Origin: Octopus vulgaris
Lineage: Eukaryota
NCBI GenBank assembly: GCA_951406725.2
Contig: OX597814.1
Span: 118,358,001 to 118,422,000, forward strand
Direction of reading: 5' to 3'
Length of the DNA stretch: 64,000 nt
The translations under genes and the position numbers were made by a program. A model generated the notes under the pieces. The model was not told the DNA's origin, did not search any database, and saw only the letters and a list, made by a program, of their open reading frames with translations. Below are positions 70-59,669 of the stretch, piece after piece (the first letter of the stretch is position 1; each line of letters begins with the position of its first letter).

Positions 70-240
70 CCAGAGTATAGCACACAAATGCGAAAATGGT
101 GGAAAGAATAGTACACTAATACCAGAGATAGAGTAATATGCTTTATTAAAAAGCATAAAAGATATCACAAAAGCTGTTGCTCAGAGTTTCCCGTTCCAGT
201 TCGTCGGAATGTGAAACTCTGAGTAACGTATTTTGTGATT
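70..240 (-). mobile_element. Short non-autonomous Penelope-like element (family A) between (AT)n tracts, with fold-back end and degenerate hammerhead
   Basis: Similar to 14667-14897 and 29600-29745. Inverted repeat atcacaaaa..gttgctcagagtttc / gaaactctgagtaac..ttttgtgat. Minus strand reads CCGACGA-ACTGGAACGG-GAAAC-TCTGA-GCA. Confidence 0.6.
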
Positions 241-464
241 GATATATATATATATATATATATATATATATATATATATATAATTATAATTAAGGGTTAA
301 TTGCAACAAGTTGCTCAAAACCACATACCGAAAAAATTAGAAATAGCAGCCAAATTGGTCACTATTTCTCCTACAAACAAAAGTCTCCACAAACAAACAG
401 AATTTGTAACCTGTATATGGCAAAAAAAAAGGAAGAAAATAACGAAATCCCAGCCTATGGATTA

Positions 465-522
465 ATTATAGACGAATTGTTTCTGGATTAGAACCGAAGG
501 CTCATTTCCTTGTCAATATAAT
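465..522 (-). ncRNA. Minimal type I hammerhead ribozyme-like motif (U3:A8 core variant)
   Basis: Minus strand: ATTATA-TTGACAA-GGA..GAGCC TTC GGTTC..TCC-A-GAAAC-AATTC-GTC-TATAAT. 6-bp stem I and GUC triplet. Confidence 0.6.
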
Positions 523-621
523 ATTTCCTATAAATCTAGAAATGCTAGGGGAAAAACCCACCCTTTACACCAGCTCCTTTTTTGCTCTCCTTGTTTCTCT
601 CCTTGTTTTTTTTTCTGTGTA

Positions 622-659
622 TCTTTCTGTCGAAGAGCGTAGGCTCGAAACGTAAAAGA
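622..659 (+). ncRNA. Minimal hammerhead-like motif (A6U variant)
   Basis: TCTTT-CTGTCGA-A-GAGC GTAG GCTC-GAAAC-GTA-AAAGA. Same architecture as 55780-55812. Confidence 0.55.
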
Positions 660-1410
660 CTTTTTCTATTTCTATTCCTGAGCGCTATACTAATACAATT
701 GTTTGTTTGTACTCCACCTGCCTTCGTCTTTTGTTTATTTTCGTAAACCTTCCCGTTATATATATGTATATATATATATATGTATGTATGTATGTATGTA
801 TGTATGTATGTATGTATGTATGTATGTATGTATATATGAATGTGTGTGTGTGTGTATGTGTTATTGAGAGAAGGAAAGAGATGCAGAAAGTGAGTCATAC
901 ATATAGATACAGATGTATGTATAAAAAATTATAAATAGAGACACAAAAGAACGATTAACGGAAATCGAGAAATATACATGAAGACAATCCACATATAATT
1001 GCGACAAGAATAAATACAACACCAGTGCATCTAACGTGCAGAATATTTTATTTCATGGTAAAACATTTATGATTGCATTAGCTATTGTCAATATCAATCA
1101 GCTGATGGTCCTTAGGTAATGCACAAGCTTGTACTTAGAAATGATCGTTGCTGGTGTTTGAATGAATGCTTTCCAACAAATATATGCAGACAAATATGAG
1201 ATCGATGTAGATGTTTAGAGGACACTGTCGATGTTGTCAAATGTTCTCATGGTCTTAATTTCTAAGGCCTCATTTGCATACATTTATATTTATAAGCTAC
1301 AGTGTCTACAATTAAATTACAATTAAACTAATTAGCTGTGTATAGGCATAGGAATTGCTGTGTTACAGGCGTAGGAATGGCTGTAAATAGGCGCAGGAAT
1401 GGCTGTAAAT

Positions 1411-1809
1411 AGGCGCAGGAGTGGCTGTGTGGTAAGTAGCTTGCTTACCAACCACATGCTTTCGGGTTCATACCCACTGCATGGCAACTTGGGCAAGTGT
1501 CTTCTACTATAGTTTCGGGCCGACCAACCCTTGTGAGTGGGTGGATTTGGTAGACAGAAACGGAAAGAAGCCCGTCGTATATATGTATATATATATATAT
1601 ATATATATATATATATATATATATATATACATATACATGTATATATGTGTGTGTGTGTGTATGTGTATGTTTGTTGGTCTGTGTGATATCGGTAGAATAA
1701 GTAATTGGCTTACAAAGAATAAGTCCTGGGCTCGATTTGCTCGACTAAAGGCGGTGCTCCAGCATGGCCACATTCAAATGTCTGAAACAAATAAGAGTAA
1801 AAGAGTAAC
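1411..1809 (+). mobile_element. tRNA-derived SINE, type 1 (head, internal AT/GT microsatellite, tail)
   Basis: Head aggcgcaggagtggctgtgtggtaag..gggttca (A/B-box like). Tail ggcggtgctccagcatggcc..tgaaacaa..(aagagta)n. Several homologous copies in the window. Confidence 0.9.
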
Positions 1810-55812: not shown

Positions 55813-56114
55813 GAGAGGAAAGTCCAATAGAAAGGAAGAGGGAGGACCAAACGCCAATGATTGACATATGAATACATATATATATACCTATCCATCTATC
55901 AATCTATCTATATCTATATCTATCTATCTATCTATCTCTCTCTCTCTCTCTCTATATATATATATATATATATATATATGTATGTATGTGTGTGTATGTG
56001 TATGTGTGCGTGCGTATATATATATATATATATATATATATATATAGATAGATAGATAGATAGATAGATAGATAGACATAGATATAGATAGAGATATATA
56101 CATAGATATAGATA

Positions 56115-56330
56115 TAAGAAATAATTAAGATTTAGTTGAACTAGGTACTTAGGTTGAAGCACCAAGTCAGTCCGATATTATTCGCACAACTCGAAGGGAA
56201 TATAATAAAAATAAGCAATAGAATATCAAGTCATGATGCACTACGACCGTTTCAAGCGGGTCCATTTAACTGAACAATGCAATCATTACATCAATTCAAA
56301 TGCAGGGCTATCATCAGCTGCACAAATAAA
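56115..56330 (-). mobile_element. Short element homologous to 49620-49720 with degenerate hammerhead (56241-56320)
   Basis: agaaataatt..taggtacttaggttgaagcac is shared. Minus strand reads CTGATGA-TAGC..GCTT-GAAAC-G-GTC. Confidence 0.5.
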
Positions 56331-57194
56331 TATAATTTTAATCAGTCGGACACATTAATATAATTTTACTGAAATGTTCTAAGAGAGCAAGTATGTGGAA
56401 GAAATCCTTGTTGTCGGTATAATAGCTAAGAATATACTACACTTCCAAGAAATGCATGATCATTTTGATCGTTGGGATCATAGCTTGTAAAAGATTATGA
56501 TTCATTTGTAATTTATTAGTATTTTAGCAACTACTAAATCTGAAGGACAAGTGTGAGTTGACAGCGCATTGCTAGGTATGGTCATAAATATTGCCATTTC
56601 TTGATATCCTGTTACTTATAAATATTGTCATTTCTTGATATTCTGTTGCTTATTTTGAGTTTATATATATATATATATATATATATATATATATATATAT
56701 ATGTATGTGTGTGTGTATGTGTGTGTTTGTGTGTGTGCATGTATATGTGTGTATAACTATAAGTTAGACATGTTTCTGCCAAAGATGAGCGTAAATAATA
56801 TTTTACATACGTACATACATGCAAACAGACAGACACAGTCGGACAGACAAACAGAGATACATATATACTGACATGGATGCATATAATGAATGACGATTCT
56901 TATGTTCAGATACAAAATTATATTATCTATTTGGTTTTGCTCTCAAAATAGCAATATAAAACGATACGAAATCACGTTTGGAGAAAGCAAAAAACCGCGC
57001 TATATATAAGTACGTGGTAGATTTGGTCGTCATTCTTGAGACACGTTCTGGAAAATTGAATGGGAAGATGGTTGAAATGGATTAATGGCCTGTTTGGTTC
57101 GTCAGTGCAGCCTGCGTAATATATATCCACATTATATATCCACATACTCAAATATAGCGCTATCTTGTGATTATTGCTATTAAACTTAGTGGAA

Positions 57195-58020
57195 CCAGAT
57201 AGCAATGTTTATATGCCAACAGAATGTGGCAGTCCTATGAAGGGCGATGTTTCTGTTGTTTTAGCCCCAGGAAAACATCTTTCCCAGCTGCCTATCGACA
57301 CACAACTTGTCTTTGTATAACATGTGCATGGGAGGTGATTGCTCCCATACTCACAGACCTAGGTTTCTGAATGTTATCCCTTATCACTGTGAGACAACCA
57401 CCATCTATTAATGAAAGCTCTATTCACTGAATTGAGATGACATCCAGAGACCTAGGTCTGTGAGTATCACGGAAGGCTAGAGATGGGAGTGATGACCTCC
57501 ACTGCAAATGCTATACAACTTGAAAAGATCGTTTCTTTGAGCTAAAAAAAGAGTACCATCGTCATTTATAGGATTGTCACATTCTGTTAGCATATAAACA
57601 TTACAATTCGGTAATGTTACTGTATTTCTCTCGCTCAGAGATTTATAAAAAGTTGTTTTTCTCGATACGAGATCAGCGACTGTGTGTGTCGCTTAAAAGA
57701 ATATATAGTATTTGCAAGTGGAGAAAGCTTTCGTTACTAGCTTGTGGTTGTCTCACACTGAGGACGGATAACAACATTGAAAACTAGGACTGTGAGTATC
57801 ACGTAAGGCTAGAAATGGGAGCGATGACTTCCCTTACAAATCCCATACGGACAAAAACTGTCTGTTGACAGCCAGCTGGTATAGATGCTTTTTTTTTCTG
57901 GGGCTAAAACAACAGTAACATCGTCCGTTATAGGACTGCTACATTGTGTTGGCTATAAACATTACTATCCGGTACTTTTACTGTATTTCCCTCGCTCAGA
58001 GATTTTAAGCATGTTGTTTT
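57195..58020. repeat. Three copies of a ~250-bp unit (one inverted, two direct); distant relative at 53780-53965
   Basis: cctaggtctgtgagtatcacg.aaggctaga.atggga..ataggac/ttg..cacattctgtt..cgctcagagattt at 57445 and 57745. Inverted copy at 57195-57403. Confidence 0.8.
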
Positions 58021-59411
58021 TCTCTATTAGTGGAACCAGTTTAAGTTTAATTGAATCAAGCATTGCTTGTTGAAACCTTAGTTTCAGATATTGCTATAAA
58101 CATATTTTAATGCTTTAAGCCAGTAATTGTTATTGAAATCGATTCATCCTAAAATTATCAGAGAAAGCTTTTTCTAACACACACACGCACACAGACGCGT
58201 GTACAGACATACATAGATATATTTGAGAATGTGGGTAAAAGAAAATATGGGTTGGGAGTCAGTTAGTTATGATTTTATTAAAAATATTCCCCTCTCAGTT
58301 TAAAACAACACTTGCAGTGGTCTGTCAGGTTTTTTACATCATGTAAATGAACTTGGAAGATCGAGCATCTCACCGGGACTTTCGTGATAGCCTTAAAGCC
58401 TGAACCCTTTTAGCACTTCCTCTGTATATAGTAGGTACAAACATATCTATTATATCATTATTTAAAAGAGAATAGCTGAAAGCTACTTCGTAATTCTGTT
58501 GTATAGCAGAAGCAACCTGTTGAGACTCAGAGAAGTTTCCAGCACCAACTATAATTTATAGCCTATATGTGACATATTTGACATGTATTTCTTTAGAAAG
58601 CAGTGTTCCTGCATTTACATTTTTATGCACTCGTCAGTATACGCTGGGCATAATTTAGAAATAATCCATAATCTAACCTCGCAGCTTATTCCCAATTGTG
58701 ACTGTTAAATGAGAAAAAAATGTCATCTCCTTTTAATCTATCACGATGAACATCGGATTTCTTTTTTGCATTCAGATTTGTTTTTCTTATCCCATTACTA
58801 CTCTGTTACTTGTAGATTTTTTTCTTAATGTAATCCCTTTTCCGCTCAGTCAACATATTCAGTGTATCAAAACAGATGCAACAAGATATATTTTATTACC
58901 ACACCGAATTTTGCCTTTATATTCCTTCTTCTACAAGTAATTTTGAGATTAAAAAAATGGATCGCCAAATAGCATAATCTTTGAAACAACTGACAAACCA
59001 TTTTTTATAAAAATATCACTGTAATGAAAATATGTATTTCAAATTTTGGCAGAAGGCCTGCGGTTTCTGGAATAGGGTAGGTCGATTAGATCGACCCAAG
59101 TGTTCATCTGTTAAGTATTTTATGCAAACTCAATCACGGCGGAATTTGAACTCAAAATATGAAGACGGACTAACTGTGAGTTTATCCGTATTCAATACGG
59201 ATAAACTCACACCCTCATTTTTATCTTCACTTTCTGGAAAACTACGATGTTTTCGAAAAACTTTTTAATAACCTGATATATGACTGTGTAATACGAATTG
59301 AACTCTTTAAAACCAATATGTTATCTAAATTCTCATTTTTATAGAATTTTCCATGATGTTTCACGAGTGTAACATTACCCCCTTTAATGTTTGGGGATCT
59401 CGGATGTTTTT

Positions 59412-59496
59412 TCGGCTTATGAGTACGAGCCACCTATATTTACTGCAATTTTTGTAGCTTTATTAAAGATGTCCTCGTACGAAACAATTGTACCGA
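59412..59496 (+). ncRNA. Type I hammerhead with extended stem II (G5U, probably inactivated)
   Basis: TCGG-CTTATGA-GTACGAG...CTCGTAC-GAAAC-AATT-GTA-CCGA. Confidence 0.65.
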
Positions 59497-59669
59497 TATA
59501 TTGATCCATTCTTGTTGCTTTTTTCCTATATATATATATATATATATATATATATATATATATATATATATATATATATATATATATATATATATATATA
59601 TATATATATATATATATATACTTATATATATATATATTATATATATATATATATACTTATATATATATA

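What the first reader, a model, noticed from the sequence alone, without database searches (positions are those of the whole stretch)
70..59527. Many minimal hammerhead ribozymes in unrelated, non-coding, (AT)n-anchored mini-elements
Seen: about 15-19 type I hammerhead-like motifs in 64 kb (175-208, 465-522, 622-659, 2252-2287, 2674-2768, 10847-10896, 11063-11111, 12649-12726, 14422-14499, 14700-14737, 14750-14791, 17599-17638, 18575-18614, 28390-28427, ~29710-29740, 50244-50320, 55780-55812, 56241-56320, 59412-59496). They fall into roughly 10 families whose stems differ in sequence but keep the core and a tiny, often palindromic stem III (ACCGGT, ACATATGT, ACAATTGT, AACGTT). Established: Penelope-like elements carry such minimal hammerheads, which are proposed to cleave as dimers, and retrozymes are non-autonomous hammerhead retroelements. 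Inference: a large, diverse population of non-autonomous PLE/retrozyme-like elements mobilised by the Penelope families whose GIY-YIG remnants are also in this window. I cannot tell whether these families are already described.
Basis: partly seen in the sequence, partly recalled or inferred. Interest (0 to 1): 0.9.

Follow-up and report, generated by a model that had tools for sequence, protein, structure and literature searches.

The report
Hammerhead ribozymes of Penelope-like retrotransposons
These are real hammerhead-ribozyme motifs: most sit at the ends of cut-short copies of protein-coding Penelope-like jumping genes, the rest in short non-coding repeats that likely borrow the same enzymes, a known arrangement, although one very common family carries a changed catalytic-core letter whose effect is untested.

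Summary
Observation confirmed, interpretation half right. All 19 listed sites are minimal type I hammerhead motifs or decayed copies, far above shuffles (9 vs 0.43), and 20 of 23 lie just upstream of (TA)n. They are not all non-autonomous. Thirteen belong to, or are sisters of, six protein-coding Penelope-like families (three Hydra, two Neptune-type, one Nematis-like), as 5'-truncated, often inverted 3' ends. Four lie in non-coding, circularly permuted 476-559-nt monomers (retrozymes); two are unresolved. Two further retrozyme families (352, 492 nt) and one more Hydra family were missed. All five retrozyme families show the Penelope integration signature: two preferred 3' ends, inverted arms, (TA)n targets, and an uncut ribozyme. 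The kind is published (PMC4209133, PMC7229834, PMC8557442, bioRxiv 2026.07.22.740005). Possibly new: a young, intact Neptune-type lineage with about 16,000 exact matches fixes U at core position 6 while positions 7 and 17 vary freely. A Nematis-like family fixes C9. No cleavage or RNA evidence was obtained.

The parts
66..228 (-). Decayed arm of an A-family relative (Hydra-type); hammerhead 175-208 with C4 core and broken U16.1; short inverted arm 194-228 (+)
   Evidence: 78% to natural copy L188
275..572 (-). Part of 559-nt retrozyme R559; hammerhead 465-522, U3:A8 core, stem III ACGA-N-TCGT in the family
   Evidence: 91-94% to 7-unit array L475
575..757 (+). 3' end of Neptune-type family C; hammerhead 622-659 with CUGUCGA core (U at position 6)
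   Evidence: 92% to L349, 88% to intact L511; 16,568 exact pattern hits
2225..2318 (-). Decayed relative of family D; hammerhead 2252-2287, U3:A8 core
   Evidence: 74% to L147
2336..3194 (-). Old family E; hammerhead 2674-2768; parent unresolved
   Evidence: 75-82% genomic copies, no upstream PLE protein found
3458..3808 (+). Hydra-type GIY-YIG remnant, not tied to a window hammerhead
   Evidence: tblastn to Hydra-type ORFs; no Pfam GIY-YIG hit
7549..7766 (+).
   Evidence: GIY-YIG 1,120-1,130 nt upstream in 3 of 14 loci
10545..10931 (-). Retrozyme F (476-nt monomer), left arm; hammerhead 10847-10896
10931..11273 (+). Retrozyme F, right (inverted) arm; hammerhead 11061-11113
12607..14024 (-). 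Hydra family B, 3' UTR arm; hammerhead 12649-12726
   Evidence: 98.8% to L022, which has an 828-aa open RT-EN frame
14030..14612 (+). Hydra family B, inverted arm with about 1.08-kb internal deletion and 70-nt tail; hammerhead 14422-14499
14667..14895 (.). Hydra family A, extreme head-to-head truncation: hammerheads 14700-14737 (-) and 14750-14791 (+), 69-nt tail on the right arm, (TA)n both sides
   Evidence: 95-100% to intact 3.36-kb unit L188; 3,710 exact 32-mer hits
17487..18735 (.). Nematis-like family H, head-to-head arms; hammerheads 17599-17638 (-) and 18575-18614 (+), C at core position 9
   Evidence: 84-89% to L272/L335; 3,189 exact hits, 96 of first 100 with C9
28338..28699 (.). Neptune-type family D: minus arm 28338-28568 with hammerhead 28390-28427 (U3:A8), inverted tail arm 28611-28699
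   Evidence: 98-99% to L147/L156 with RT-EN frame
29604..29742 (-). Decayed A-family relative; hammerhead 29710-29742, C4 core, G12 lost
   Evidence: 72% to L188
49769..50480 (+). Retrozyme G (544-nt monomer), 1.2 units plus 55-nt inverted arm 49769-49823; hammerhead 50244-50320
51644..52000 (-). Neptune-type (family C-like) GIY-YIG remnant followed by CA-rich 3' UTR
   Evidence: 57% aa to L349
52103..52678 (-).
   Evidence: 92% to natural dimer L466
53136..53465 (-). Hydra-type RT remnant
   Evidence: 38% aa to L188 frame
54179..54371 (-). Neptune-type GIY-YIG remnant
   Evidence: 66% aa to L349; weak Pfam GIY-YIG E=0.054
55680..55812 (-). Copy of sister family C' (3-nt loop 2, A6 kept); hammerhead 55780-55812
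   Evidence: 13,436 exact hits of the sister pattern
56120..56370 (-). Old family I; hammerhead 56241-56320 (stem I broken in this copy, intact in the family); parent unresolved
57194..58027 (.).
59191..59527 (+). 3' end of Hydra family J; hammerhead 59412-59496 (G5 mutated in this copy, CUGAUGA in 21 of 22 family motifs)
   Evidence: 94% to near-full L149

Best explanation
The motifs are minimal type I hammerheads at the 3' ends of truncated copies of at least seven protein-coding Penelope-like families and inside five non-coding 352-559-nt circularly permuted repeats, and both kinds were likely inserted into (TA)n by the Penelope reverse transcriptase and GIY-YIG nuclease. Shown in DNA: each family has one motif 35-230 nt before its 3' end; full-length units are tandem, with the motif in the pseudo-LTR just ahead of the next ORF; insertions end at two preferred points (short end and tail end), are 5'-truncated, often head-to-head inverted, and carry the ribozyme uncut. 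Inferred from published work: the nuclease nicks (TA)n; reverse transcription starts internally at two sites downstream of the ribozyme and copies through it, so the template is uncut or religated RNA; early fall-off and fold-back give the short palindromic 'mini-elements'. The palindrome that replaces stem III is predicted to let two copies pair and cleave as a dimer, probably with protein help. This would cut tandem transcripts into unit RNAs that can circularise. For the retrozymes that step is likely the core of their life cycle; for the autonomous families it is likely dispensable, as families with altered cores (U6, C9, C4) still spread to thousands of copies.
For: Protein link: B 16 of 20 loci with an 828-aa frame; J 10 of 30, near-full copy L149; A 11 of 30 in a positional sample, intact 727-aa frames and a 3,352-3,362-nt tandem period; D 5 of 8 extended loci, Pfam RVT_1 and GIY-YIG; H 3 of 5 extended loci; C: intact frame in L511 and the motif 0.5-0.9 kb after the nuclease in 6 of 6 young copies; 7641 3 of 14. 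Retrozymes: natural tandems with periods 544, 559 (7 units), 492 and 352, and 476 from a copy of more than one unit; longest ATG frame 18-71 aa; PLE protein in sense upstream in 0 of 14 loci plus 0 of 9 arms (R559), 0 of 28 (R492), 0 of 26 (K), 1 of 23 (G, distant fragment), 0 of 28 loci (F). Two preferred 3' ends: G 31 of 61 arms at +169-178 and 18 at +275-292; R559 9 and 7 of 17; R492 16 and 9 of 30; K 13 and 7 of 33; F 13 and 13 of 31 (broad). 0 of 30 family A arms start at the cleavage site. Dimer folds beat two monomers by 6-12 kcal/mol in 7 of 7 motifs, with the stem III palindrome paired between strands. Literature: PMC4209133, PMC8557442, PMC11167929, PMC7229834.
Against: No cleavage or RNA evidence was obtained here. 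Loci from DNA searches are the best-scoring 40 of hundreds to thousands of candidates, so 'no ORF upstream' for the retrozymes rests on samples (only G was also sampled by pattern). No sequence similarity was found between the five monomers and the pseudo-LTRs of seven autonomous families, so the helper element is not identified. Circular folds of F (z -1.6) and K (z -1.4) are not more stable than shuffles. Families E and I have no parent. Pfam gives no RT or nuclease hit for the Hydra-type frames; their assignment rests on motifs seen in the Craig et al. text and supplement. Dimer stability is partly trivial for any palindrome.
Confidence: 0.85

Rival explanations
1. All the motifs belong to non-autonomous mini-elements.
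For: True for five families. In the best-score sample for family A, 30 of 30 loci were the same about 225-bp palindromic unit with no ORF nearby.
Against: That sample was biased by the query. A positional sample shows varied junctions, spacings from about 25 nt to 5.4 kb and ORFs in 11 of 30 loci. Six further families are tied to RT-EN frames.
Confidence: 0.05
2. The non-coding monomers are satellite-like offspring of a pseudo-LTR that spread by DNA-level tandem amplification, not by retrotransposition of their own RNA.
For: A 7-unit array of R559 exists. bioRxiv 2026.07.22.740005 discusses such local amplification.
Against: Copies are dispersed over many contigs, mostly under 1.7 units long, with two fixed 3' ends, scattered 5' ends, inverted arms and (TA)n targets; G shows only one dimer among 33 exact hits.
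Confidence: 0.08
3. The motif is kept not as a self-cleaving RNA but as a structural signal (protein binding, dimerisation or packaging of the template), at least in the autonomous families.
For: Family-fixed core changes expected to hurt catalysis: U6 in 96 of the first 100 hits, C9 in 96 of 100, C4 in 72 of 100 of the sister family (hand count). Young intact elements carry U6. No arm starts at the cut site. Ribozyme mutants do not block insertion in vitro (PMC11167929).
Against: In the core-unbiased sample of family C the only poorly kept positions are N7 (0.35) and H17 (0.77), exactly the two that catalysis leaves free. Most families keep the full catalytic set, with U3:A8 covariation in several.
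Confidence: 0.3
4. The motifs are chance matches in an AT-rich, repeat-rich window.
For: 8 of 14 loose hits at most arise in a shuffle; 11 of the 19 listed sites fail the strict descriptor.
Against: 9 versus 0.43 at high score; thousands of exact genomic copies with 0 reversed-pattern controls; family relatives restore the fold.
Confidence: 0.01

Closest known systems
Minimal hammerheads of metazoan Penelope-like elements (Cervera and de la Pena 2014, PMC4209133)
   Same: Type I, short stem I, unpaired base between 9 and 10.1, palindrome instead of stem III, U3:A8 variant, thousands per genome, mostly single motifs from truncated PLEs, opposite-strand pairs 100-700 bp apart; supplement consensus CUGANGAH...GAAAN-palindrome-NUH.
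   Different: Longer palindromes (6-10 nt) are common here; many motifs have a mismatch on both sides of the stem II base; family-fixed U6 and C9 cores are not in the text read; no octopus in the one supplement file searched.
Hydra-clade PLEs, including Hydra-1_Obim (Craig et al. 2021, PMC8557442)
   Same: RW(K/A/R) motif, DKT, CxCX5C linker, C-terminal GIY-YIG, (TA)n targets, hammerhead in the pseudo-LTR, inverted 5'-truncated arms, tail at one end. An octopus member with hammerhead is listed, and another listed Hydra family has nearly family A's ribozyme.
   Different: Families A, B, J and 7641 are not Hydra-1_Obim (different ribozyme); units are 3.4 to over 4 kb rather than under 3 kb; tails are 50-115 nt rather than 30-40.
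Neptune (and Nematis) PLEs
   Same: Families C and D have GLRF/GLKF, DKG, a CX4CxxC linker and the CCHH-type nuclease; family H has the CX4CxxC linker and DKSG.
   Different: C carries U6, H carries C9, D has an extra upstream ORF overlapping the RT frame at a TTTTTTA heptamer. Neptune versus Nematis was not tested by a tree; the Nematis label for H is recalled from motifs.
Non-LTR retrozymes of animals (PMC7229834; bioRxiv 10.64898/2026.07.22.740005)
   Same: Non-coding, low-GC (32-38%) monomers of a few hundred nt with one type I hammerhead; monomers, dimers and arrays; proposed to be moved by PLEs; mussel examples are 350-390 nt.
   Different: Here they carry PLE-type minimal ribozymes, are mostly dispersed, and show the PLE integration signature (two fixed ends, inverted arms, (TA)n), which the parts of those papers I read do not report; no homology to a known pseudo-LTR was found; circular RNA not shown.
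Natural core variants of hammerheads (A6C of phage Bcep176, U4C of viroids; PMC3088659, PMC7151607)
   Same: A change at position 6 or 4 of the CUGA turn with the rest of the core kept; A6C lowers Mg-dependent cleavage and favours Mn.
   Different: Those are rare single examples; here U6 is fixed in a lineage of about 16,000 exact matches and C4 in most of a sister lineage.

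Membership tests
Minimal type I hammerhead of PLEs | Core CUGANGA (or U3:A8) ... GAAA ... UH with stems I and II | tested here: met
   canonical or U3:A8 in A, B, D, F, G, J, K, R559, R492, 7641, I
Minimal type I hammerhead of PLEs | Invariant A6 and A9 | tested here: not met
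   Only for families C (U6 in 96 of 100; 24 of 26 core-unbiased) and H (C9 in 96 of 100); these two are variants, not canonical members
Minimal type I hammerhead of PLEs | Palindrome in place of stem III, allowing a dimer | tested here: met
   Many different palindromes across families; it changes within G (ACCGGT, ACCTAGGT, ACCGCCGGT); cofold; H has AGAACT, only partly self-complementary
Minimal type I hammerhead of PLEs | Self-cleavage at UH, as dimer or protein-assisted | not testable with these tools
   Needs in vitro assay
Hydra-clade PLE (A, B, J, 7641) | RWK-like motif, DKT, CxCX5C linker, C-terminal GIY-YIG | tested here: met
   RLRWKA/SDKTRN/CNCKNESSC (L188); RIRWAA/ADKTGN/CNCRCASEC (L022); RIRWRT/ADKTGN/CNCRIKSKC (L149); criteria. 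For 7641 only the nuclease end was seen
Hydra-clade PLE (A, B, J, 7641) | Insertion into (TA)n, pseudo-LTR with hammerhead, inverted arm, tail | tested here: met
Hydra-clade PLE (A, B, J, 7641) | Placement in the clade by RT phylogeny | not tested
   No reference set in the script box
Neptune/Nematis PLE (C, D, H) | RT plus CX2-5CxxC linker plus C-terminal GIY-YIG | tested here: met
   CSRPRCRTC (L511), CGRPNCGIC (L147), CTDRYCTVC (L338); Pfam RVT_1 for L147 and L335
Neptune/Nematis PLE (C, D, H) | Neptune versus Nematis by phylogeny | not tested
   Labels rest on motifs; Nematis for H is recalled
Non-LTR retrozyme (F, G, K, R559, R492) | Non-coding monomer of a few hundred nt with one type I hammerhead | tested here: met
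   352-559 nt, longest ATG frame 18-71 aa
Non-LTR retrozyme (F, G, K, R559, R492) | Tandem repeats with at least two complete ribozymes | tested here: met
   Met for G (L342), R559 (L475, 7 units), R492 (L466) and K (L387, second copy decayed); F seen only as copies of up to 1.37 units
Non-LTR retrozyme (F, G, K, R559, R492) | Expressed as linear and circular monomer RNA | not testable with these tools
   Only assembled contigs of runs guessed to be RNA were on offer
Naiad PLE | N-terminal nuclease, no canonical hammerhead | tested here: not met
   All linked frames have a C-terminal nuclease and a hammerhead

The most novel reading that the evidence does not exclude
A still-young Neptune-type lineage with about 16,000 exact matches uses a working hammerhead with U at position 6, a core letter held to be essential, kept under selection across many subfamilies (N7 and H17 free, the rest fixed) and rescued by dimerisation, its own protein or a non-Mg ion. 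Alongside it, five retrozyme families are copied from circular RNA by Penelope enzymes from two internal start sites, which is direct genomic evidence of how animal retrozymes move.
Probability: 0.3. Interest if true: 0.65.

Novelty: new member of a known kind. Interest (0 to 1): 0.38.

Why it matters
The kind is known, so the window adds families rather than a new system. Two points matter to specialists. First, how animal retrozymes move is stated as open in the 2026 preprint; here five families carry the Penelope-specific two-start-site tail, inverted arms and (TA)n targets, which points to Penelope enzymes and gives exact start sites to test. Second, what the Penelope hammerhead does is unclear. 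This genome holds young intact elements with a canonical core (A) and a U6 core (C), plus a large C9 family (H), a natural panel for asking whether cleavage matters. Many such repeats may sit among unclassified SINEs in repeat libraries (inference; one search lists 893 recently active unclassified SINE families in an octopus and does not mention ribozymes).

Tried and rejected
Rfam scan: swamped by microsatellite-driven miRNA matches, no hammerhead among the 150 listed. First descriptor without an unpaired base at the stem II foot: 0 hits. Repeat finder: swamped by microsatellites. Family A as a fixed 225-bp mini-element: suggested by the best-score sample, rejected by the positional sample. 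Family D had 0 of 30 protein hits at first because the queries were of another clade; longer loci showed the frame. Idea that the B right arm is a spliced form: the junction is a 4-nt microhomology, seen in 1 of 41 matches. Idea that retrozyme copies start at the cut site: an edge artefact of the doubled reference, gone with a tripled one. Coding explanation for the free N7 in family C (GTN wobble): the upstream ATG is in varying frames and closed by a stop in 20 of 21 copies. Family C first noted as Poseidon-type, corrected to Neptune-type on the linker. Linking E or I to a PLE protein, or the 3458 nuclease to a motif: no support. Candidates at 54535-54578, 57040-57110 and 58590-58645: no homologue in the fetched loci, not counted. 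Sequencing runs: no RNA holder listed; contigs of four runs guessed to be RNA cover parts of G but cannot show ends, strand or circles. Monomer-to-pseudo-LTR similarity: only two short chance-level matches. One search timed out after four families and was redone for the rest. Earlier scan findings: none. Lunse et al. 2017 (dimer cleavage of PLE hammerhead variants) is not held; it may already list position-6 variants.

Full report
Setting. The window is C1:118,358,001-118,422,000 of G000, a 2.80-Gb assembly in 227 contigs, AT-rich and dense in (TA)n. An octopus-like mollusc is my inference from size, contig number and the likeness of its elements to Hydra-1_Obim; it was not verified.

1. Observation. 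All 19 listed sites hold a type I hammerhead-like sequence. A strict descriptor passes 8 of the 19 and finds two more, at 7641 and 57350. Nine motifs score 9 or more against a shuffle mean of 0.43, maximum 2 in 60 shuffles. To avoid circularity, sites in 84 kb were picked by core, GAAAC and palindrome only: 8 of 16 have a stem I of 3 bp or more, against 5% in shuffles. 20 of 23 motifs have (TA)n within 260 nt downstream, against 6.1 expected. Exact patterns occur 3,710 (A), 16,568 (C), 3,189 (H), 13,436 (C') and 33 (G) times in the genome, with 0 reversed controls each. The 11 sites that fail the descriptor are decayed copies or family variants, as their relatives show.

2. Families tied to protein-coding elements. 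B (12649/14422): 16 of 20 loci carry the frame; L022 has 828 open codons with RT, a CxCX5C linker and GIY-YIG, and the window copy is its 3' UTR at 95-100%. J (59412): 10 of 30 loci; L149 is near full length. A (14700/14750): the best-score sample gave 30 of 30 short palindromes, but a positional sample gave 11 of 30 with the frame, and L187/L188 are intact tandem units of 3.35-3.36 kb with the ribozyme about 200 nt ahead of the start codon. 7641: nuclease 1.1 kb upstream in 3 of 14 loci. These four fit the Hydra clade by RW(K/A/R), DKT and CxCX5C (criteria; motifs matched by eye to Hydra-1_Obim; Pfam gives no hit). D (28390): 5 of 8 extended loci, RVT_1 and GIY-YIG in Pfam, CX4CxxC linker. 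C (622): L349 and the intact L511, CX4CxxC linker. H (17599/18575): 3 of 5 extended loci. Sites 175 and 29710 are 72-78% relatives of A, 2252 is 74% to D, and 55780 belongs to a sister of C whose own frame I did not fetch. So 13 of 19 listed motifs are 3' ends of, or sisters to, autonomous families.

3. Non-coding families. In five families the sequence after the ribozyme leads back into the sequence before it: G 544 nt (dimer L342), F 476 nt (L029), R559 (7-unit array L475), R492 (dimer L466), K 352 nt (L387). The longest ATG frame on the circle is 18-71 aa. A PLE protein in sense upstream was seen in 1 of 23 G arms (a distant fragment) and in none of the F, K, R559 or R492 samples. Circular folds beat shuffles for G, R559 and R492 (z -5.2, -5.6, -4.5) but not F or K (-1.6, -1.4). 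Every family has two preferred 3' ends and scattered 5' ends (G: 31 of 61 arms at +169-178, 18 at +275-292; others in the For line), arms of up to 1.7 units that run through the cut site, inverted arms and (TA)n flanks. Four listed motifs (465, 10847, 11063, 50244) are of this kind; 52256 and the 57350 cluster were missed. E (2674) and I (56241) are old, share about 1 kb upstream among copies and show neither a frame nor a circle.

4. How it works. Shown: anatomy, two 3' ends, truncation, inversion, uncut ribozymes; 0 of 30 family A arms begin at the cut site, while 21 of 30 stop 2-46 nt before it, inside or just ahead of the ribozyme (ungapped walk). From PMC11167929 (abstract and main text through the start of methods): a Penelope protein nicks AT-rich DNA and starts cDNA at two internal RNA sites, which makes the tail; its hammerhead cleaves only with protein and is not needed for insertion. 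Inferred: the same happens here for both kinds of element; the retrozymes borrow the enzymes; their template is a circle or an uncut multimer. Predicted: the palindrome pairs two ribozymes (dimer 6-12 kcal/mol better in 7 of 7), so tandem transcripts would be cut to unit length.

5. Core variants. Family C has U6 in 96 of the first 100 exact hits, with all four letters at N7, each at least 13 times (hand count). In 26 copies found by the downstream flank alone (of 59 hits; 33 had no ribozyme upstream and were dropped), 24 have U6; column conservation is 0.35 at N7, 0.77 at H17 and 0.81-1.0 elsewhere in the motif, against 0.77 upstream and 0.86 downstream (the latter raised by the search). 6 of 6 young copies with frames over 1,000 codons carry CUGUUGA. 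H has C9 in 96 of 100, which could pair with G12 and kill catalysis (inference). The sister C' has C4 in 72 of 100 (hand count). Known natural variants are A6C and U4C, with reduced activity (passages of PMC3088659 and PMC7151607). Searches for A6U or CUGUNGA-type cores with hammerhead returned nothing relevant in the listings; Lunse et al. 2017 could not be read and may bear on this.

6. What is known. PMC4209133 (parts 1-2 of 4 and passages of one supplement file; the other file was not searched) already reports thousands of such motifs per animal genome, mostly single, with U3:A8, palindromes and opposite-strand pairs. PMC8557442 (passages, section 11 and supplement rows) defines Hydra, its (TA)n targets, tails and inversions, and lists an octopus member with its hammerhead. 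PMC7229834 (passages) defines animal retrozymes and shows circles in mussel. bioRxiv 2026.07.22.740005 (parts 1-3 of 5; supplements closed) proposes they are non-autonomous PLE sequences from co-occurrence and pseudo-LTR homology, and leaves the mechanism open. PMC13282606 (passages) counts 31 recently active Penelope-like families in an octopus, with no mention of ribozymes. PMC6765202 was seen as passages. Searches for octopus with hammerhead ribozyme and retrozyme with Penelope and microsatellite listed no study of cephalopod retrozymes.

7. Verdict. Real feature, known kind, new members. The extras worth follow-up are the Penelope signature on five retrozyme families and the fixed U6 core. 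Interest 0.38.

Noticed in passing
window 42024-44732 (-) and 11438-12529 (-): A 902-codon open frame with endonuclease and RT domains (Pfam Exo_endo_phos_2, RVT_1), a CR1/L2-like LINE by recall, and a 363-codon 3' fragment of a relative.
   Followed up: partly
window 30949-31721 (-): Mariner-like transposase fragments by eye; the one piece scanned had no Pfam hit.
   Followed up: no
window 38747-39655 (+): Fragments resembling a Helitron Rep/helicase by eye (recalled); no Pfam hit for the piece scanned.
   Followed up: no
L156 3489-4799 and 1264-3549 (-): Family D has a 437-codon upstream frame overlapping the RT frame by about 60 nt at a TTTTTTA heptamer, a possible -1 frameshift site.
   Followed up: partly
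window 14419-14422: The right arm of family B lacks about 1.08 kb of 3' UTR across a 4-nt microhomology; seen in 1 of 41 matches.
   Followed up: yes
L199-L228 (family A arms): 21 of 30 arms stop within 2-46 nt upstream of the cut site, several at a CTAG palindrome, suggesting stalling or fold-back at the ribozyme.
   Followed up: partly
flanks of L001-L510: 318 distinct high-scoring motifs in 1.9 Mb of enriched, overlapping loci, with more than a dozen further families and palindromes (ACACGTGT, ACGATCGT, ACGTACGT, ACTGCAGT and others).
   Followed up: no
window 54535-54578 (-): CTGAAGA with a perfect 5-bp stem II and GAAA but weak stem I, 160 nt upstream of the nuclease remnant; no homologue in the fetched loci.
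   Followed up: partly
window 53777-53998 (+): A further decayed copy of retrozyme K (66-72%).
   Followed up: no
window 1400-1800, 15230-15700, 55460-55620, 59680-60000: Abundant short SINE-like repeats next to microsatellites, recurring in many fetched loci.
   Followed up: no
L149 2207-4537 (-): The family J protein has a long Asn-rich insertion between RT thumb and nuclease.
   Followed up: no
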